Source: Leucoraja ocellata
Taxonomy: Eukaryota
Reading direction: 5' to 3'
Assembly: GCA_036785375.1 (NCBI GenBank)
Contig: JAWMAR010000227.1
Coordinates: forward strand, 3,286,001 to 3,350,000
DNA: 64,000 nt
Below, one piece after another: positions 23,076 to 60,712 of the stretch; within the stretch, counting starts at the first letter, position 1; each line of letters starts with the position of its first letter. The notes under the pieces were generated by a model, which was given only the letters and a program-made list of their open reading frames with translations, was not told the origin of the DNA and did no database searches. The position numbers were made by a program, and so were the translations under genes.

Positions 23076-23191
23076 GAAGTGGGGATCTCTGTCATGATAT
23101 CAGAATAGCACTGGGTTGAGAATGACATCAGGGAACGCTGATAAAATTAAAGTCATTATGAACCTAACGAAGAAAACCTACTGCCTAGTGT

Positions 23192-23397
23192 AGATAGACA
23201 CAAAAAGCTGGAGTAACTCAGCGGGACAGGAGGTATCTCCGGAGAGAAGGAATGGGTGCCGTTTCGGGTCTGAAGAAGGGTCTTGACCCAAAACGTCACC
23301 CAATCCTTCTCTCCAGAGATGCCCTCTGTCCCGCTGAGTTACTCCAGCTTTTTGTGTGTATCTTCAGATTAAACCTGCATCTGCAGTTCCTTCCCAC
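23192..23397. mobile_element. Penelope-derived fold-back unit centred on the hammerhead motif
   Basis: Inverted arms around gggtctgaagaagggtcttgacccaaaacgtc. Confidence 0.8.
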
Positions 23398-29195: not shown

Positions 29196-29520
29196 GGAAT
29201 TTCATTGTTCTGTTGCCAGTACATATGACAATTAAACGCTCTCGATTCTTAATCTTGACTCTCTCTTGACTCTCCTGACTACTCATCGAGTTTCCACTGT
29301 CCATGAAAGTTATTGAGCTTATTTCAGAACTGCACAGCGCATAACTAGATTTGAAGCAGGTTCCTGGTAGCTTTTCATTGCTAATGCTGACTCAAACATA
29401 TTGGTTCTGGGTTTAAATGCACCATGAGTTTAATCCACTCAATGGTGCTCCTATCTCCCACTGTGGCTTTTCCCTTCCCCATCTTTGTAAATTCCGTCAC
29501 CCCCACCACAATAAGATTTA

Positions 29521-29726
29521 TGCCCCTGTCCCACTTAGGAAACCTGAACGGAAACCTCTGGAGACTTTGCGCCCCACCCGAGGTTTCCGTGCGGTTCCCG
29601 GAGGTTGCAGGTAGTGGAAGCAGGTAGGGAGACTGACAAAAACCTCCGGGAATTGCACGCTTACCTTGGGTGGAGCGCAAAGTCTCCAGAGGTTTCCGTT
29701 CAGGTTTCCTAAGTGGGACAGGGGCA
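29521..29726. mobile_element. PIF/Harbinger-type MITE (same family as 16266)
   Basis: Long TIRs; TTA TSD at 29518-29520 and 29727-29729. Confidence 0.92.
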
Positions 29727-30671
29727 TTATTAGACTTTACTTTTAGAGATACAGTGTGGAAATAAGCCCTTCGGCCCACCGAGTCGACGCCGACCAGTAC
29801 ACTCGCACTATTCTAAATACTAGGCACAATTTACAGAAGTCAATTAACCCACACCCAGAGAAAACCCAAATGATTTTGCAGGGAAAATGTACAAATTGCA
29901 TACAGACAGAACCACTAGTCAGGTTCGTTTGTCTACCTTTCTGTCCTCTCATAAGTTTATTATTAAAAGCTTATCGCTAGAAACAGGTTTAGGATTAGAT
30001 TTTTTTTATTGTCACTTGAATTGAGAGTGTAAGCTTTGTTTTGCATGCTATTGAAACAGATCAAGGAATATTGCACATAAATACAATCTAGTGCAATGCA
30101 TTTTAGTTCAACAGTTCCACAGACAAAGTCGAATGACCACAATGAGGTAGAGGTGAATCGTACAGTCCTCTACTGTTCAGAAGCCTGATAACAGAGGGGG
30201 GAGTAGCTATTCCTGAATCTGGTGGTGCGTGCATTCAAAGCTTTGTATCTTCTGCCGGAAGAAAGATTTGGAAATTAAAGATTGGTTGTGTGGCTCATTG
30301 TCCAATTCTGTGGTATTGCCTTAGGTGTTGTTTTTAGTAACACTGTTTAAATTAAAGCTATTTATGTTATCGATGGCATTAAAATGTAGATCTTCCATGA
30401 TCTACTGAATGACTCAATGGGATGAATTTTCTCCTCCTTATATTGCTAGGAATCACTATGAGGACTGTCTTCACTGACCGGTTTCCAAGAATGTTTATTA
30501 TATTCACATATTTGATATACACAGCCATCAGAATATAAAGAGGTAGAACATGTTTTATGATTCACGCATTGCTCCTATGACTCTAGGTGCAGTTCAAGGA
30601 ATTCATTTTGAGCCTCTCTGTGGTATGTTTGTTGCTCAGTAAGAAATTGAAGCATTTTGCAAGAGGAATAT

Positions 30672-46208: not shown

Positions 46209-46876
46209 AAACCTAAATATAAAGCCTTCAACAAGGCATCTTAGACGGAGATGGAGCAACCCATACCTCCTGGGGAGGAGGCTGCATTTATTGTATCAGG
46301 ACCATAATGTTTACACAAGATATCAATTTTATGAACCAAAGCAGGGAAAGGCATTTCCCCACAGCTTTACAAGTTTCCATACTTATCGCAATATAGAAGG
46401 CAGCTATTTATGCAATTGTATCTATGTGAATAAATAATAGACACAGAGTGCTGGAGTAACTCATTGGGTCAGGCAGCATCTCAGAAGAACATTGATAGGT
46501 GACGTTTCGGGTTGAGACACTTCATCTGGCTAATTATATTGGGGGGTGGGGAGGGAATTCAGGAAGAGAGTAGGGGCAGGACAAACTCCAGCAAGTAATA
46601 GGTGAATACAGACGAGGAGGGTTTTTGATAGTCAGATGGTTGGACAAGGACCAGAGGTGAAAAGACAGAGGGTGTGAGACAAAAGGAGTCATAGTCTTAG
46701 AGTCGCACGGCATGGACACAGGCCTTTTGGCCCATCTCGTCCATGCCTACCAAGATGTCCCATCTAAGCTAGTCCCGTTTGTGGAGTTAAATTGTACTGC
46801 CACAGAATGTAGTTGAGGCCAGTTCATTGGCTATATTTAAGAGGGAGTTAGATGTGGCCCTTGCGGCTAAAGGGAT

Positions 46877-47259
46877 AGAAACATAGAAACATAGAAATTA
46901 GGTGCAGGAGTAGGCCATTCGGCCCTTCGAGCCTGCACCACCATTCAATATGATCATGGCTGATCATCCAACTCAGTATCCCGTACCTGCCTTCTCTCCA
47001 TACCCCCTGATCCCCTTAGCCACAAGGGCCACATCTAACTCCCTCTTAAATATAGCCAATGAACTGGCCTCAACTACCCTCTGTGGCAGAGAGTTCCAGA
47101 GATTCACCACTCTCTGTGTGAAAAAAGTTCTTCTCATCTCGGTTTTAAAGGATTTCCCCCTTATCCTTAAGCTGTGACCCCTTGTCCTGGACTTCCCTAA
47201 CATCGGGAACAATCTTCCTGCATCTAGCCTGTCCAACCCCTTAAGAATTTTGTAAGTTT
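46877..47259 (-). mobile_element. Young CR1 3' end (same subfamily as 55688)
   Basis: (catagaaa)n tail; ORF 46973-47236; diagnostic tcctttaaaaccgag. Confidence 0.92.
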
Positions 47260-47770: not shown

Positions 47771-47965
47771 TTTAAGAAGGAACTGCAGATGCTGGAGAAT
47801 CGAAGGTTACACAAAAAAGCTCGAGAAACTCAGCGGGTGCAGCAGCATCTATGCAGCGAAGGAAATAGGCAACGTTTCGGGCCGAAACCCTTGGTTTCGG
47901 CCCGAAACGTTGCCTATTTCCTTCACTCCATAGATGCTGCTGCACCCACTGAGTTCCTCCAGCTG
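47771..47965. mobile_element. Young Penelope fold-back unit
   Basis: aacgtttcgggccgaaaccc-tt-ggtttcggcccgaaacgtt with arms of about 70 bp. Confidence 0.85.
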
Positions 47966-50266
47966 TTTGTTTTCTTTTTGCACCAGATTTTACATTACAG
48001 GTTGAAATCCCTTTGCAAGATTTGCTGAGTATTTCCAGCATTCTCTGCCCTCTACTTCACTCGACCAACATCTGCGGTTTTTTTTTTTTAATTTCCAAAC
48101 TCGTTTAAATTTCTAAACACATTTAACTTCATTTTTAGTCCAATGGTAAATCCTGAGATTCCTCATTTACGATCATCTTGCACTTATTCAGGAGGAGGCT
48201 ACTTGGCCAGTAGATCAACGGCAACTCCCAAAGGAGCAGGAAAAAAGACACCGAGTGCTGGAGTAACTCAGCGGGTCAGGCAGCATCTGTGGAGGACCTG
48301 TATCGGTGATGTTTCGGGTCGGGACCCTACTTCTTACTGGTTGTAGGGATGGTAGGGGAGAAAGCTGAAAGAGGCCCCACCCCACCACAATCAGTCTGAC
48401 CCGACTAATGAACCCGAAACGTCACCTATGCATGTTCTCCAGAGATGCTCACACATTCATAAGTTATAGGAGCAGAATTAGGCCATACAACCCATCGAGT
48501 CTACTCCGCCAACCAATCATGCCTGACCTATCTTTCCTCGAGCGAAGAACTACTTTAAAGTCAGCATACCTTGAGGACATTTTGCAGTGGAGCAGTGATT
48601 TAGCAAAGTTCTCCTCCTCTCTAATCACCCATCACTTGCATGACCCCACCTCTCGTCCAGCATTCATCCCCCCCACCACCCCACAACATTCAGTCTAAAG
48701 AAGGGTCCACATCCGAAACATCATCTGTCCGTGTTCTCCAGAGATGCTGCCTGAGTTACTCCAGCACTTTGTGCCTTTTCTTTTGTAAACCAGCATCTGC
48801 AGTTCCTTGTGCCTTCATGTTATCAACGTCTCATTGTTGCCACTGCTTGAGAGTATCCTGGTTCCATGATCCAGCAAGGCTCACTGTTGGGACATTATAT
48901 CTAGAAATAATCATTGGATCATTACACAGAAAGAGGCCATTTGACCCATCAAGTCTCTGTTGGTGCATAAAAGAACAATCCCATAGATCCAACTATCACT
49001 GGTCAGACATAATTCTCCCCCAAACTATCTATCTCCTTCCCGTCCGCCATCAGTCTGAAAGTGACACAAAGTGTTGGAGTAACTCAGCGAGTCAGGCAGC
49101 CTCTCCAGAGAATATAGATAGTTGGGACTCTTCTTCAGACTGATTCAGACTCAGAAGGGTTCTGACCAAAACGTCACCGGTTTCGGCCCGAAACGTTACC
49201 TATTTCCTTCGCTCCATAGATGCTGCTGCACCCGCTGAGTTTCTCCAGCTTTTTTTGTGTACCGTCACCTATACACATTCTCCAGAGATGCTGCCTGGAC
49301 CACCGAGTTACTCCAGCACTTTGTGTTTCTTTGTTGTAAACCCACTTCTGCAGTTCCTCGTGCCTACAATCAGTCCGAAGACGGGTCCCAACCAAAACCG
49401 TCGCCTATGCGTGTCCTCCACATATGTTGCCTGACCCGCTAAGTTATTCCAGTGTACTTGGTTCTAGATTGGCAAACAGAGCCGTTTTGTGTTTCGCTGG
49501 CACATTGTGTTGCTGTACAGTCATCTAACAGGGTGCAGTGCATAGCAGAAGGAAAATGATATTAATCCCCGGACTGTTTTAAACGTGCATTAAAGCTACT
49601 GGAATAGCAGCTCTGACTTTGTACTTTAAAACTACACTTTCAGCAAGATTGTAACTGAACTTCAAAAGAAATGTTGCAATGCAGCAAAAAGAAGTTGAAG
49701 AGCCCAGATTCCCAGCGGAACCTGATGCTGCTTTGAACACAGGCCAGTAACAATTCCAACAAAGGAAGTAATGGAACATTGTTGCACTGATCTTTGTCAA
49801 ACTTTAATCTGCTCCATTCTAAACAGCCTAATCCCCCACATTTCAACAGCCTCCCAAAATTCTTATCATACAAAAATATCGCTAGTAATGAGGTTGTTTT
49901 AAAGCTTCGTGTTTTAGTGAGTTTGGAAATGAATGTGAGATCATTTTAATCTATTGTTAACACCTAATAATTCAGCCATTTTATTCCTATAAATTAACAC
50001 CTGTGGGCCATTAATATTCATGAAGTTATTCATGATGAATTGTGGAAAGAAGATCAAAGAACTGGAACAATTTACAATGATGAGAAACCATATGGAGGGT
50101 GATAGATGAAAACTGGGAGGAATATTAGGAAGCACCTAGCACTCAATTAATACATATCACAGCCAAATCCCTCAATGATAGCCGGTCGGAAAATTGGTAT
50201 TAGCGTTGTAAATGTGCAGACCTTTCACTATTAACTCTTGTATAAATCACAGACCAATTTCTGCAG

Positions 50267-55120: not shown

Positions 55121-55687
55121 TGCTTACCAACTACAAATCTTACTGCGCTCAAAGCACGCGGTGTATCTAGAAGGGAGAAGGTACAACACAGGTGGAGGCC
55201 CTTTGGCCCACAATGTCCATGCCAACCATGATGCCAAGATAAATTAAGTGTAGATGTGGCATCTTGGTTGGCATGGGCAAGTTGGATTGAAGGGCCTGTT
55301 TCGGCACTGTATGACTATGATTCTATCTCCCTCCTCCACATTTATTGCACCTGATGCTGGTTGAGGGAGAGATCTCCATGATTCAGGACATCTGAGGAGT
55401 TCAGTGCTTTACTGCCAACGCCAAAATTAGCTTTGCTCCAATTTCTACTACAATCGGCAACTCTGTAGTCAGATTAATGAAACTTCCAGCATCTTCTCCA
55501 GCAAAGTGGTTCATTAACTATTTGAGAAATATTATTGTGTGTTTGATATGATTGAATGTTTGTTTTGTATAGCCACAGTGGAAGAGTCACATACCACAGA
55601 AACAGTCTCTTTGGCCCAATTTGTCCATGCCGACTAAGATGGCCCATGTACGCACGTCCCACTTCCCCACATTTGGTCCTTGTCATC

Positions 55688-56070
55688 CTTACAGAATTCT
55701 TAGGGGGTTGGACAGGCTAGATGCAGGAAGATTGTTCCCGATGTTGGGGAAGTCCAGGACAGGGGGTCGCAGCTTGGGGATGGGGGGGGGGGGGAGATCC
55801 TTTAAAACCGAGATGAGAGGAACTTTTTTCACACAGAGAGTGGTGAGTCTCTGGAACTCTCTGCCACAGAGGGTAGTTGAGGCCAGTTCATTGGCTGTAT
55901 TTGGGAGGGAGTTGGATGTGGCCCTTGTGGCTGAGGGGATCGGGGGGTATGGAGAGAGGACAGGTACGGGATGCTGAGTTGGATGATCAGCCATGATCAT
56001 GTTGAATGGCGGTGCAGGCTCGAAGGGCCGAATGGCCTACTCCTGCACATAATTTCTATGTTTCTATGTT
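55688..56070 (+). mobile_element. CR1 3' end with clustered A>G substitutions
   Basis: Aligns over its full length to the reverse complement of 46877-47259, with about 20 A>G changes. Confidence 0.92.
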
Positions 56071-56084
56071 TTGTCCTTCAGACT

Positions 56085-56647
56085 TTAAACATACAGCACA
56101 GAAACACACACCAAGTCCATGCTGACCAACACTAGCGCTAGCCTACACACTAGGGACAATTTACAATTTTGCTCAAGCCAATTAATTTACAAACCTGTAT
56201 GTTTTTGGAATGAGGGAGGAAACCGGAGCACCCGGAGAAACCCATGCGGTCACAGGGAGAATGTGCAAACGTATAGTCAGGATTGAATCCATAGTCAGGA
56301 TTGAACCCAGATCTCTGGTGCTGTAAAGCAGCAACTCTATTTCATTGCATTGTTCCAATGGAATGCAACAGATGTAAATTGACATTTAGTTTAGTTTTGT
56401 TTAGTTTGGCCCTTTGGCCCACGGAGCCCATGCTGACCAGCGATCGCCCGCGCACTTGTTTCATGCCTCGCATTACGGACAATTTACAGTCGACGATTAA
56501 CCTACAAAGCTGCAGGTGTTTGAAATACGGGAGGAAACCGGAGAAAACCGTCATTGTCGCAGGGATAACAATCTCCATACAGACATCAGCCGAGGTCAAG
56601 ATTGAACGCAGGCAGCATCTTTACCGCTGCGCCACTGTGCCGCCCCG
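56085..56647 (-). mobile_element. Two HE1-type SINEs (56085-56350 and 56384-56647)
   Basis: Reverse-complement SINE bodies. Confidence 0.78.
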
Positions 56648-58037
56648 CATCAGCAACGTATCTGCGATTAAGTTCACCATGAGGAGATGCTTGCGTTGCT
56701 TCAGGCGTTCCTGAGAGTGAACCACCTTGTAATGACCATTGAATCCGCCAGCAGCCAACATGTGTAGGAAGGAACTACAGATGCTGGTTTAAACCGAAGA
56801 TAGACACAAAAACAATTCATTCTGCATATCTTCCCCTTTCCCCTGACTCTCAGTCTGAAGAAAGGTCTCGACCCGAAAAATCACCTATTCCTTTTCTCCA
56901 GATGCAGTTTGACCCGTCGAGTTGCTCCGGCTTTTTGTGTCCAAAGCAGATCTACATCTGTTTCGAGCTGTAACGGGGTCAAAGAGAATCATGTAAGAAT
57001 CCCTTTTGAGACCAGGAGTGAGAGCCTTACAAGTACACAAACCATTTTGCTCTGGTTGCAGTGAAACCACTCCACTCCACGAGAATCTCAATTAGTTCAT
57101 GTAAACTTATTCCTTTATATTTGAACTTCATGGTTCAGCTGGTTCCGGCTAATAGAATCCTCACATGTTAAAATAACTAATTTGTGATATTTATGGCTCA
57201 GCCTATTTAATCATTCTTTCCACAACCAAATGAAAAATTAAAGAACAGAGAATATTCTTTTGTTATAAATTATATATAGTAAAACTGACTCTGTAATAAA
57301 GCACTTAATATGTGCGTCTATCTTTGGATGAATGGGTGTGATGGAAAAATAAGACTTAAGCTGATCAGGGAACACTTTGTTGCAAGAAAAACATAGTTTT
57401 CATTTATGTTCACAGGTCATAGGGGCAGATTTAGGCCATTCAACCCATTGAGTTGACTCTGCCATTCAATCAGGGCTGATTTATCATTCCCTCTCACCCA
57501 TTCTCCTGCCTTCTCCCCTTAACCCCTGACACCCATACTAATCAAAAAGCTGCCAATCTCCACTTTAAAAATTACCCAGACACATCTAGCATGCATGGAA
57601 AGCATATAAAATGTAAATTTAGAACCTGATTTTTTTTCTCCATTCATTGAATTATTGAATGAACGGAACATGCCCAGCAAATGTTCAAGACATTACTGCA
57701 GAAGTTTATTTATATTTTTGTCCTAGTCTGTGAATAGATTTAGCTCGGGCTTTTTACCTTTCCAATTGTGGATTAGTGCAGTGCTGAGATGGAAGTGCAA
57801 CAAATATTTCTTAGCCACGTTGTACCAGTAAAATTTCACAACAATTTAACTATCCTTATTTAATTTTTGCATTGTAATCTCATTTCATGGGTACAGATAA
57901 AAGTGAAATGCGTTGTTCCGTACTCAAAATTAAGCTAATTTACAGATGTAATTGGGTTATGATATGTGATATAGTTGTCAATACTGTAAGTACAATATGC
58001 AATTTGAATAGTCAAGACATAAGATTTACACTTTATT

Positions 58038-60120: not shown

Positions 60121-60712
60121 TTTAGTTTAGTTTATTGTCACGTATGAAAAGGAACAGTGAAAAGCTTTTGTTGCGTGCTAACTAACCAGCAGAAAGATAA
60201 ACCATAACTACAGTTGAGCCGTCCACAGTTTCCAGGTACAGGATAACAGGAATAACATTTAATGTAAGGTGGAGTCCAGTAAAGTCCAGATGAAAGCTAT
60301 TTAAGAAGGAACTGCAGATGCTGGAAAATCGAAGGTACACAAAAATGCTGGAGAAACTCAGCGGGTGCAGCAGCATCTATGGAGCGAAGGAAATAGGCAA
60401 CGTTTCGGCCCGAAACGTTGCCTATTTCCTTCGCTCCATAGATGCTGCTGCACCCGCTGAGTTTCTCCAGCATTTTTGTGTACCTCTGATTAAAGATAGT
60501 CTGAGAGTCTCCAGTGAGGTAGATAGTAGCTCAGGGCCACTCTCTAGTTGGTGATGGGGTGGTTCAGTAGCATGAGAACAGCTGACAAAGAACTGCCCGT
60601 GAATCTGGAGGTGTGCGTTTTCATACTTCTGTACCTCTTGTCTGATGGGGGAGAGAAGGAGAGGGAGTGACTGGTGTGAGACTCGTCCTTGATTATATTG
60701 GTGGCCTTGCCA
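60121..60712 (-). mobile_element. Rex1/Babar-type 3' end with a nested Penelope hairpin
   Basis: LGKATNIIKDESHTSHS..PPSDKRYRSMKTHTSRF peptide. Confidence 0.8.
60301..60485. mobile_element. Young Penelope fold-back unit, perfect palindrome at 60333-60485
   Basis: 76-bp arms (60333-60408 and 60410-60485) are exact reverse complements. Confidence 0.92.

What the first reader, a model, noticed from the sequence alone, without database searches (positions are those of the whole stretch)
55688..56070. CR1 copy bearing an ADAR-type A>G hyper-editing signature in genomic DNA
Seen: against its same-subfamily sister (reverse complement of 46877-47259), this 380-bp copy has about 20 A>G substitutions on the CR1 sense strand. 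Examples are 55694, 55769, 55847, 55897, 55903-55904, 55914, 55933, 55973 and 56001. Only about two other private changes (one G>A, one C>A) and a lengthened G run are present. The 9371 copy carries A at these sites, so A is ancestral. Every changed A follows T, A or C and none follows G (gaat>gagt, gaag>gagg and gaaat>gagat spare the first A). Known: ADAR disfavours a 5' G neighbour, and inosine is copied as G. Inference: a dsRNA-edited LINE transcript was reverse-transcribed and integrated, writing A-to-I editing into the germline. This could be an RNA-level restriction or diversification route for LINEs, distinct from APOBEC G>A editing.
Basis: partly seen in the sequence, partly recalled or inferred. 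Interest (0 to 1): 0.9.

Follow-up and report, generated by a model that had tools for sequence, protein, structure and literature searches.

The report
RNA-edited LINE copies written into DNA
This dead jumping-gene copy carries 20 A-to-G changes on one strand, as do at least eight other copies in the same genome, likely because the RNA-editing enzyme ADAR altered their RNA before it was copied into inherited DNA, which would make them a rare permanent record of RNA editing.

Summary
Confirmed and extended. Against 31 sister copies, the 383-bp LINE fragment has 20 A>G, 0 T>C and 2 other substitutions; none of 35 A's after a G is changed. Six of the 20 G's were seen in read-derived contigs of two samples. 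A related species has the empty site, so the insertion is young, with a 5-bp target duplication. Genome-wide pattern searches found 8 more independent copies with the same signature (133 A>G against 5 T>C and 5 other A changes). Mirror T>C and G>A searches found no hypermutated copy. Pooled 5' neighbour rates (A≈T > C > G) match published ADAR preferences. New here: editing almost stops at the ORF2 stop codon; the structured 3' UTR shows 3 changes where 26-30 are expected. Best reading: ADAR edited duplexed LINE RNA before reverse transcription. The enzyme and the duplex partner are inferred. It is rare (order 1 in 10,000 of over 110,000 copies), so a major restriction route is not supported. 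The scan noted the same phenomenon before in other genomes. I found no paper showing it for LINEs; the retroviral counterpart dates from the 1990s.

The parts
55680..55684 (+). 5' copy of the 5-bp target-site duplication (TTGTC)
   Evidence: A contig of run X4 (organism B) joins 55679 directly to 56071 (table 8, record 20); the same five letters stand at 56071-56075
55685..55687 (+). Three extra letters at the 5' junction, neither target duplication nor element
   Evidence: Sister copies continue differently upstream; absent from the empty site
55688..56070 (+). 5'-truncated young LINE copy (CR1-type anatomy) with 20 sense-strand A>G changes
   Evidence: longer sisters carry a 627-aa frame with RVT_1
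55688..55977 (+). End of ORF2 with its TGA stop (55975-55977); holds 19 of the 20 A>G changes (55694-55973); 16 of the 18 codons they alter are missense
55782..55794 (+). Run of 13 G: AA>GG would turn AAGGGGG into 7 G, plus 6 extra G; likely slippage, not checked in reads
   Evidence: L052 has 7 G and L105 has 8 G at the same place
55978..56050 (+). 3' UTR with two predicted hairpins (about 55983-56000 and 56012-56048); one A>G only (56001, just outside the first stem)
   Evidence: Fold; sparing across 9 copies
56051..56070 (+). 3' tail of TTTCTATG repeats, unedited in this copy
56071..56075 (+). 3' copy of the target-site duplication
46877..47259 (-). Unedited sister copy of the same young subfamily (comparison)
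   Evidence: 0 A>G, 1 G>A, 1 C>T against the majority
9369..10106 (+). Older sister copy, A at all 20 sites (comparison)

Best explanation
This is a young, 5'-truncated LINE insertion with 20 sense-strand A-to-G changes, whose RNA template was likely hyper-edited by ADAR while paired with a presumed antisense copy, and whose inosines would have been copied as G by the element's reverse transcriptase into inherited DNA. Shown: insertion anatomy, empty site in a related species, one-type and one-strand changes confined to the insert, neighbour preference, recurrence in 8 other copies of several subfamily types, and sparing of the 3' UTR. Inferred: the enzyme, the duplex partner (an inverted copy in the same transcript or an antisense RNA from another of the many copies), and the reason for the sparing (the UTR folds on itself and is bound or needed by the reverse transcriptase, so it is shielded, or RNAs edited there fail to insert).
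For: 20 A>G, 0 T>C, 0 of 35 after G. Exact contigs from two samples cover 6 of the 20 G's. Empty site in organism B, with flanks about 1-3% different (records 17-23), leaves no time for 20% change at A. Flanking repeats show no A>G excess: 3 of 33 and 5 of 31 differences. Pattern hits for sense A>G against mirror T>C: 19 vs 1, 9 vs 1, 11 vs 0; G>A control 2. None of the 2 T>C or 2 G>A hits has an excess outside the pattern. Eight other copies pass p<1e-3 on sites outside the search window; pooled they have 133 A>G, 3 A>T, 2 A>C, 5 T>C, with rates by 5' neighbour A 0.26, T 0.23, C 0.13, G 0.04 (G vs rest p=3e-14; C vs G p=3e-4) and by 3' neighbour G 0.19, A 0.16, C 0.12, T 0.07. Published ADAR1 order: 5' U>A>C>G, 3' G>C~A>U (PMC3113232). 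The 9 copies lie 3 on + and 6 on - of their contigs, so the bias follows the element. Last 97 nt: 3 of 176 A's changed, 26-30 expected from context; a direct UTR search gave 5 hits, none a young hyper-edited copy. A_deamin domain matches lie at several multi-exon loci of the genome.
Against: No duplex partner or source transcript was identified; the element alone folds no better than shuffles (z=-0.65) and edited sites are not more often paired in its own fold (p=0.37). The 3' G preference is not significant after removing 5'-G sites (p=0.09). W-before-A is also the recalled motif of polymerase eta. Human L1 RNA was reported as not edited by ADAR1 over 2.5 kb (PMC5224506). 14 of 20 G's were not seen in reads, and run X1 may be the assembly's own sample. 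Of 27 pattern-found loci tested besides L001 and L008, 2 were T>C controls and 1 was the focal copy; of the other 24, only 7 passed the outside-window test. No edited RNA of this family was examined.
Confidence: 0.85

Rival explanations
1. An error-prone host polymerase (polymerase eta type, WA>WG) made the second, sense strand of some new insertions, giving sense-only A>G after A or T.
For: Would be strand-specific and confined to the insert; 18 of 20 focal changes follow A or T. Polymerase eta errs more at T and A (PMC9858799, passages).
Against: 153 A>G against 5 A>T/A>C and few indels in 9 copies, whereas the review describes transitions, transversions and a high indel rate. C before A is three times as permissive as G (p=1e-4), the ADAR order. 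Up to half of non-G sites change within tracts, above error rates I recall for this enzyme (a few percent; recalled). It gives no reason for a boundary at the 3' UTR.
Confidence: 0.06
2. The LINE reverse transcriptase misread A as G under a nucleotide-pool imbalance or by primer dislocation.
For: Gives sense-strand changes limited to the insert and to single insertion events; the lengthened G run shows slippage nearby.
Against: Putting C opposite template A should be favoured when the next template letter (the 5' neighbour) is G; this context is the most avoided (15 of 404). Ordinary copies show no A>G bias: 50/16,825 vs T>C 36/14,687, p=0.39. Synthesis starts in the UTR, which is spared.
Confidence: 0.03
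3. A deaminase acted on DNA: ADAR on the DNA strand of an RNA:DNA hybrid after or during insertion.
For: ADARs can edit DNA in hybrids in model substrates (PMC12925331, passage).
Against: In the insertion intermediate the DNA is the antisense strand, which would read as T>C on the sense strand; that class is missing. Flanks are untouched.
Confidence: 0.03
4. Sequencing or assembly artefact (base-calling bias, or RNA reads used in polishing).
For: The 13-G run looks like a homopolymer error; 14 of 20 sites not seen in reads; systematic one-type errors are known in trace data (PMC2873906).
Against: Contigs from two samples match exactly across 6 G's, one spanning the junction. L040 and L044, 98.6% alike over 3 kb and likely two haplotypes, share 25 A>G. 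Neighbouring repeats are normal. The bias follows element sense, not contig strand.
Confidence: 0.02

Closest known systems
ADAR-type A>G hyper-edited retroviruses: Rous-associated virus U3 and avian leukosis virus (Felder 1994; Hajjar and Linial 1995), as described in PMC12925331 (passage read; originals not held)
   Same: Edited RNA copied by a reverse transcriptase into DNA, leaving dense one-type A>G changes
   Different: Here a non-LTR element, inherited in the germ line, recurring in at least 9 independent insertions, with a spared 3' UTR
APOBEC DNA-edited retroelements fixed in vertebrate genomes (PMC4866542, PMC2873906; passages read)
   Same: A host deaminase leaves a strand-specific cluster in single genomic copies; found by comparing sister copies
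   Different: A>G from RNA-level change, not G>A from cDNA deamination; LINE, not LTR; PMC4866542 has no occurrence of 'ADAR' in its main text; no G>A hypermutated copy was found here
Ultra-edited human RNAs (PMC3197674, passages read)
   Same: Dense A>G clusters in repeats with a deficit of G upstream
   Different: Those are transcripts that differ from their locus; these are genomic insertions
ADAR1 restriction of human LINE-1 (PMC5224506, passages read)
   Same: ADAR meets LINE RNA
   Different: That work found no editing of L1 RNA and an editing-independent mechanism, while allowing rare editing below detection; the present copies would be such rare events

Membership tests
ADAR A-to-I hyper-editing signature | Dense cluster of A>G with almost no other change | tested here: met
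   20 of 22 substitutions in the focal copy; 133 of 166 in 8 others
ADAR A-to-I hyper-editing signature | Changes on the RNA (sense) strand only | tested here: met
   Pattern hits 19 vs 1, 9 vs 1, 11 vs 0; 153 A>G vs 5 T>C in 9 copies
ADAR A-to-I hyper-editing signature | 5' neighbour U/A > C > G | tested here: met
   A 0.26, T 0.23, C 0.13, G 0.04 in 8 other copies, search windows excluded; reference PMC3113232
ADAR A-to-I hyper-editing signature | 3' neighbour G favoured, U least | tested here: inconclusive
   G 0.19, A 0.16, C 0.12, T 0.07; G enrichment p=0.09 among non-5'-G sites
ADAR A-to-I hyper-editing signature | A long double-stranded RNA substrate | tested here: inconclusive
   No strong self-fold; 16 of 80 anchored 10-kb stretches hold copies in both orientations, so partners are plentiful, but no source was identified
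ADAR A-to-I hyper-editing signature | ADAR genes in the host | tested here: inconclusive
   35 A_deamin matches at several multi-exon loci; ADAR1/2 not told apart from other holders of the domain
ADAR A-to-I hyper-editing signature | Dependence on ADAR catalysis | not testable with these tools
   Needs an experiment
Target-primed LINE insertion (CR1 group) | Family encodes a reverse transcriptase | tested here: met
   627-aa frame of L064, RVT_1 E=6e-33, ending with the residues encoded by the focal fragment
Target-primed LINE insertion (CR1 group) | 5' truncation, intact 3' end with short tandem tail, target duplication, empty site | tested here: met
Target-primed LINE insertion (CR1 group) | Placement in the CR1 clade by reverse-transcriptase phylogeny | not tested
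   No reference sequences held; the atlas did not answer. The 8-mer tail and UTR hairpin as CR1 marks are recalled
APOBEC DNA editing | Clustered G>A on the sense strand | tested here: not met
   1 G>A in the focal copy; 2 pattern hits, neither with an excess outside the pattern
Polymerase eta mutagenesis | A changes at WA accompanied by transversions and indels | tested here: not met
   WA preference present, but 5 of 158 A changes are transversions; expected share is recalled, direction from PMC9858799

The most novel reading that the evidence does not exclude
ADAR-edited LINE RNAs are repeatedly written into the vertebrate germ line, and the edits stop at the ORF2 stop codon because the reverse transcriptase holds or needs the 3' UTR; the edited copies are then a natural in-vivo footprint of the LINE protein-RNA particle and a dated fossil record of germ-line ADAR activity.
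Probability: 0.5. Interest if true: 0.78.

Novelty: new variant of a known kind. Interest (0 to 1): 0.64.

Why it matters
RNA editing is normally erased with the RNA. These copies would show that edited LINE RNA can still be reverse-transcribed and inherited, a step that a 2016 review called logical to assume but undetermined for Alu (PMC4982230) and that was not seen for human L1 (PMC5224506). A family of over 100,000 near-identical copies makes the rate, age and site preference measurable from genomes alone, and the spared 3' UTR gives a direct test of how this kind of LINE recognises its RNA. The events are rare, so the effect on genome evolution is probably small.

Tried and rejected
Family-wide low-level editing: a first sample suggested A>G over T>C in young copies (26/5,686 vs 8/4,918); with 100 stretches plus the window it vanished (50/16,825 vs 36/14,687, p=0.39, no 5' G avoidance). 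An edited master lineage: no genome match above 93%, and edited copies differ in flanks and subfamily letters; shared sites (up to 11) fit favoured contexts. Self-folding as the substrate: not supported. Shorter length of edited copies: median 482 vs 664, p=0.06, not established. Editing of a host transcript at this locus or a local mutator: flanks normal. Host gene context: 32 of 67 long frames of the window scanned, no Pfam family. Weak pattern hits (for example L031, L051, L053, L055, L099/L104, L100-L103, L106, L107) did not pass the outside-window test and were left out of the pooled counts; duplicates L010, L044 and L097 and five members of two duplicate groups (L042, L045, L049; L046-L048 less one overlap with L043) were represented by one locus each. 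Presence/absence polymorphism within organism A could not be told from contigs. Look-ups of earlier scan notes by sequence and by genome returned nothing.

Full report
Observation. The window lies in a 3.44-Gb assembly of 5,847 contigs. The fragment 55688-56070 is the 3' end of a very abundant LINE: one 33-mer of it occurs exactly 110,192 times (the assembly holds duplicated loci, so this overcounts). Longer copies carry a reverse-transcriptase frame. Against the majority letter of 31 other copies the fragment has 20 A>G, 1 G>A, 1 C>A and a G run 6 letters longer. None of 35 A's after G is changed, against 20 of 65 others (p=1.1e-4). In 136 background segments from 100 stretches of 10 kb plus the window (80 stretches were centred on listed copies, 20 taken at even steps), young copies have A>G at 0.3% of A's, equal to T>C, with no context bias and no A>G-hypermutated copy.

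Is it real DNA? Read-derived contigs of four public runs were laid on 55300-57400. Run X1 has a contig identical to 55300-55724, across the 5' junction and two G's. Run X3, another sample with its own flank variants, has a contig identical to 55919-55989 at single-copy-like depth, with four G's. X1 may be the assembly's source, and the kind of these two runs is not on record, although their even flank coverage looks genomic. Fourteen G's remain unseen in reads. Repeats on both sides show no A>G excess (3 of 33, 5 of 31 differences).

Age and anatomy. A contig of run X4 (organism B) joins 55679 to 56071: the empty site. A contig of organism C also stops matching at 55679. The insert is therefore 55680-56070, with TTGTC duplicated, three extra letters at the 5' junction, 5' truncation and a short tandem tail, as expected of target-primed insertion. 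B differs from the window by roughly 1-3% in the flanks, so neutral change after insertion gives fewer than about one A>G on 100 A's (inference).

Other copies. I searched the genome with short patterns that demand A>G at chosen sites and with mirror patterns that demand T>C in the equivalent antisense contexts. Double change: 19 vs 1 hits (12 vs 1 after collapsing duplicates). Three of five: 9 vs 1 in one window, 11 vs 0 in a second; the focal copy is among the first-window hits. A G>A control gave 2. Hits were then tested only on sites outside the pattern, with subfamily-variable sites masked. Eight other copies passed p<1e-3: L008 (found), L037, L039, L040, L052, L054, L098, L105; 17 further A>G-pattern loci did not, nor did the 2 T>C and 2 G>A hits. 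The eight have different flanks and several subfamily types. L040 has a near-identical second locus sharing 25 changes. Of seven strong copies spanning both windows, four were caught by the first, three by the second and one by both, which suggests tens of such copies, of the order of 1 in 10,000 (my rough arithmetic).

Signature. Pooled over the eight: 133 A>G, 3 A>T, 2 A>C, 5 T>C. Rates by 5' neighbour: A 50/191, T 44/190, C 24/191, G 15/370. By 3' neighbour: G 68/364, A 32/197, C 17/138, T 16/243. The 5' order matches ADAR1 and ADAR2 (U>A>C>G; PMC3113232, passages and Table 3). The 3' order resembles ADAR1 but G enrichment is not significant on its own.

A boundary at the 3' UTR. In the nine copies, the last 97 letters have 3 changes at 176 A's where context predicts 26-30 (p<3e-8). 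The last codon before the ORF2 stop is changed in 4 of 9. The search windows lie upstream and could bias this, but editing stays high at equal distances on their 5' side, and a direct search inside the UTR gave 5 hits: three distant old elements without A>G excess and two short fragments with two changes each. Ordinary mutations do not spare the UTR (15.1 vs 11.2 per 1,000). The UTR folds into two hairpins. Several LINEs need their 3' end to be recognised (PMC3747384, passages). Shielding, self-folding and selection for a readable 3' end all act on RNA, so the boundary favours an RNA-level cause; which of them holds is untested. One exception, L052, has G in all three tail repeats.

Mechanism. 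Most likely a LINE RNA paired over a few hundred letters with an antisense copy, was edited by ADAR at a fifth to a half of accessible A's, kept a usable 3' end, and was reverse-transcribed at a new site. The partner is not identified; the element does not fold strongly by itself, but 16 of 80 anchored stretches hold both orientations. Polymerase eta in second-strand synthesis is the main rival; the purity of A>G, the C-over-G order and the UTR boundary speak against it. Reverse-transcriptase misreading predicts the opposite context, and DNA editing in the insertion hybrid the opposite strand.

Known and new. Hyper-edited retroviral DNA was reported in the 1990s (PMC12925331, passage; originals not held). 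APOBEC-edited retroelements are well described (PMC4866542, PMC2873906; passages). A 2016 review says roles for ADAR editing in Alu evolution had not been determined (PMC4982230, passage), and human L1 RNA was found unedited (PMC5224506, passages). I also read passages of PMC3197674, PMC9858799, PMC7827607 and bioRxiv 10.64898/2026.01.13.699120; no supplements were opened. Nine searches (five aimed at this question, read as listings) showed no paper reporting ADAR-edited LINE copies in a genome; most subscription papers are not held, so this is no proof. Earlier notes of this scan describe the same thing in other genomes, two in CR1 elements; they are unchecked and not counted as support.

Verdict. 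Observation confirmed; ADAR editing before insertion is the best explanation (0.85); a major restriction role is not supported. New variant of a known kind; interest 0.64.

Noticed in passing
L052 (G000:C20, about 2103590-2104080): All three tail repeats read TTTCTGTG in place of TTTCTATG; may be one edited repeat recopied by template slippage, or three edits. The only strong copy edited at the very 3' end.
   Followed up: partly
window 55782-55794; L105; L052: AA>GG beside five G's creates a 7-G run; it is 13 G here, 8 G in L105 and 7 G in L052, as if editing seeds a slippery run.
   Followed up: partly
L054 (G000:C718, about 110380-110890): This hyper-edited copy sits inside the tail repeats of an inverted copy of a related element.
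   Followed up: no
window 46686-47259: The unedited sister copy abuts, tail to tail, a fragment of the same family on the other strand (46797-46876 matches 55861-55940); a layout that could give double-stranded RNA.
   Followed up: no
G000 C1/C1373, C54/C204, C366/C224; L009/L010, L040/L044, L099/L104, L103/L107: Many loci occur twice with 97-99.9% identity, so the assembly likely holds both haplotypes in part.
   Followed up: partly
G000:C1:1382983-1392375: Five copies of the element at 2.2-2.6 kb spacing on one strand, a likely tandem array.
   Followed up: no
window 60327-60491, 47814-47968, 29520-29727, 23189-23366: Self-inverted repeats of 155-208 bp (82-97% alike), like miniature inverted-repeat elements.
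   Followed up: no
L008 (G000:C88, about 6122440-6123350): 25 A>G in 912 bp, mostly 560-900 letters from the 3' end, in separate tracts; editing is not limited to the last 400 letters.
   Followed up: yes
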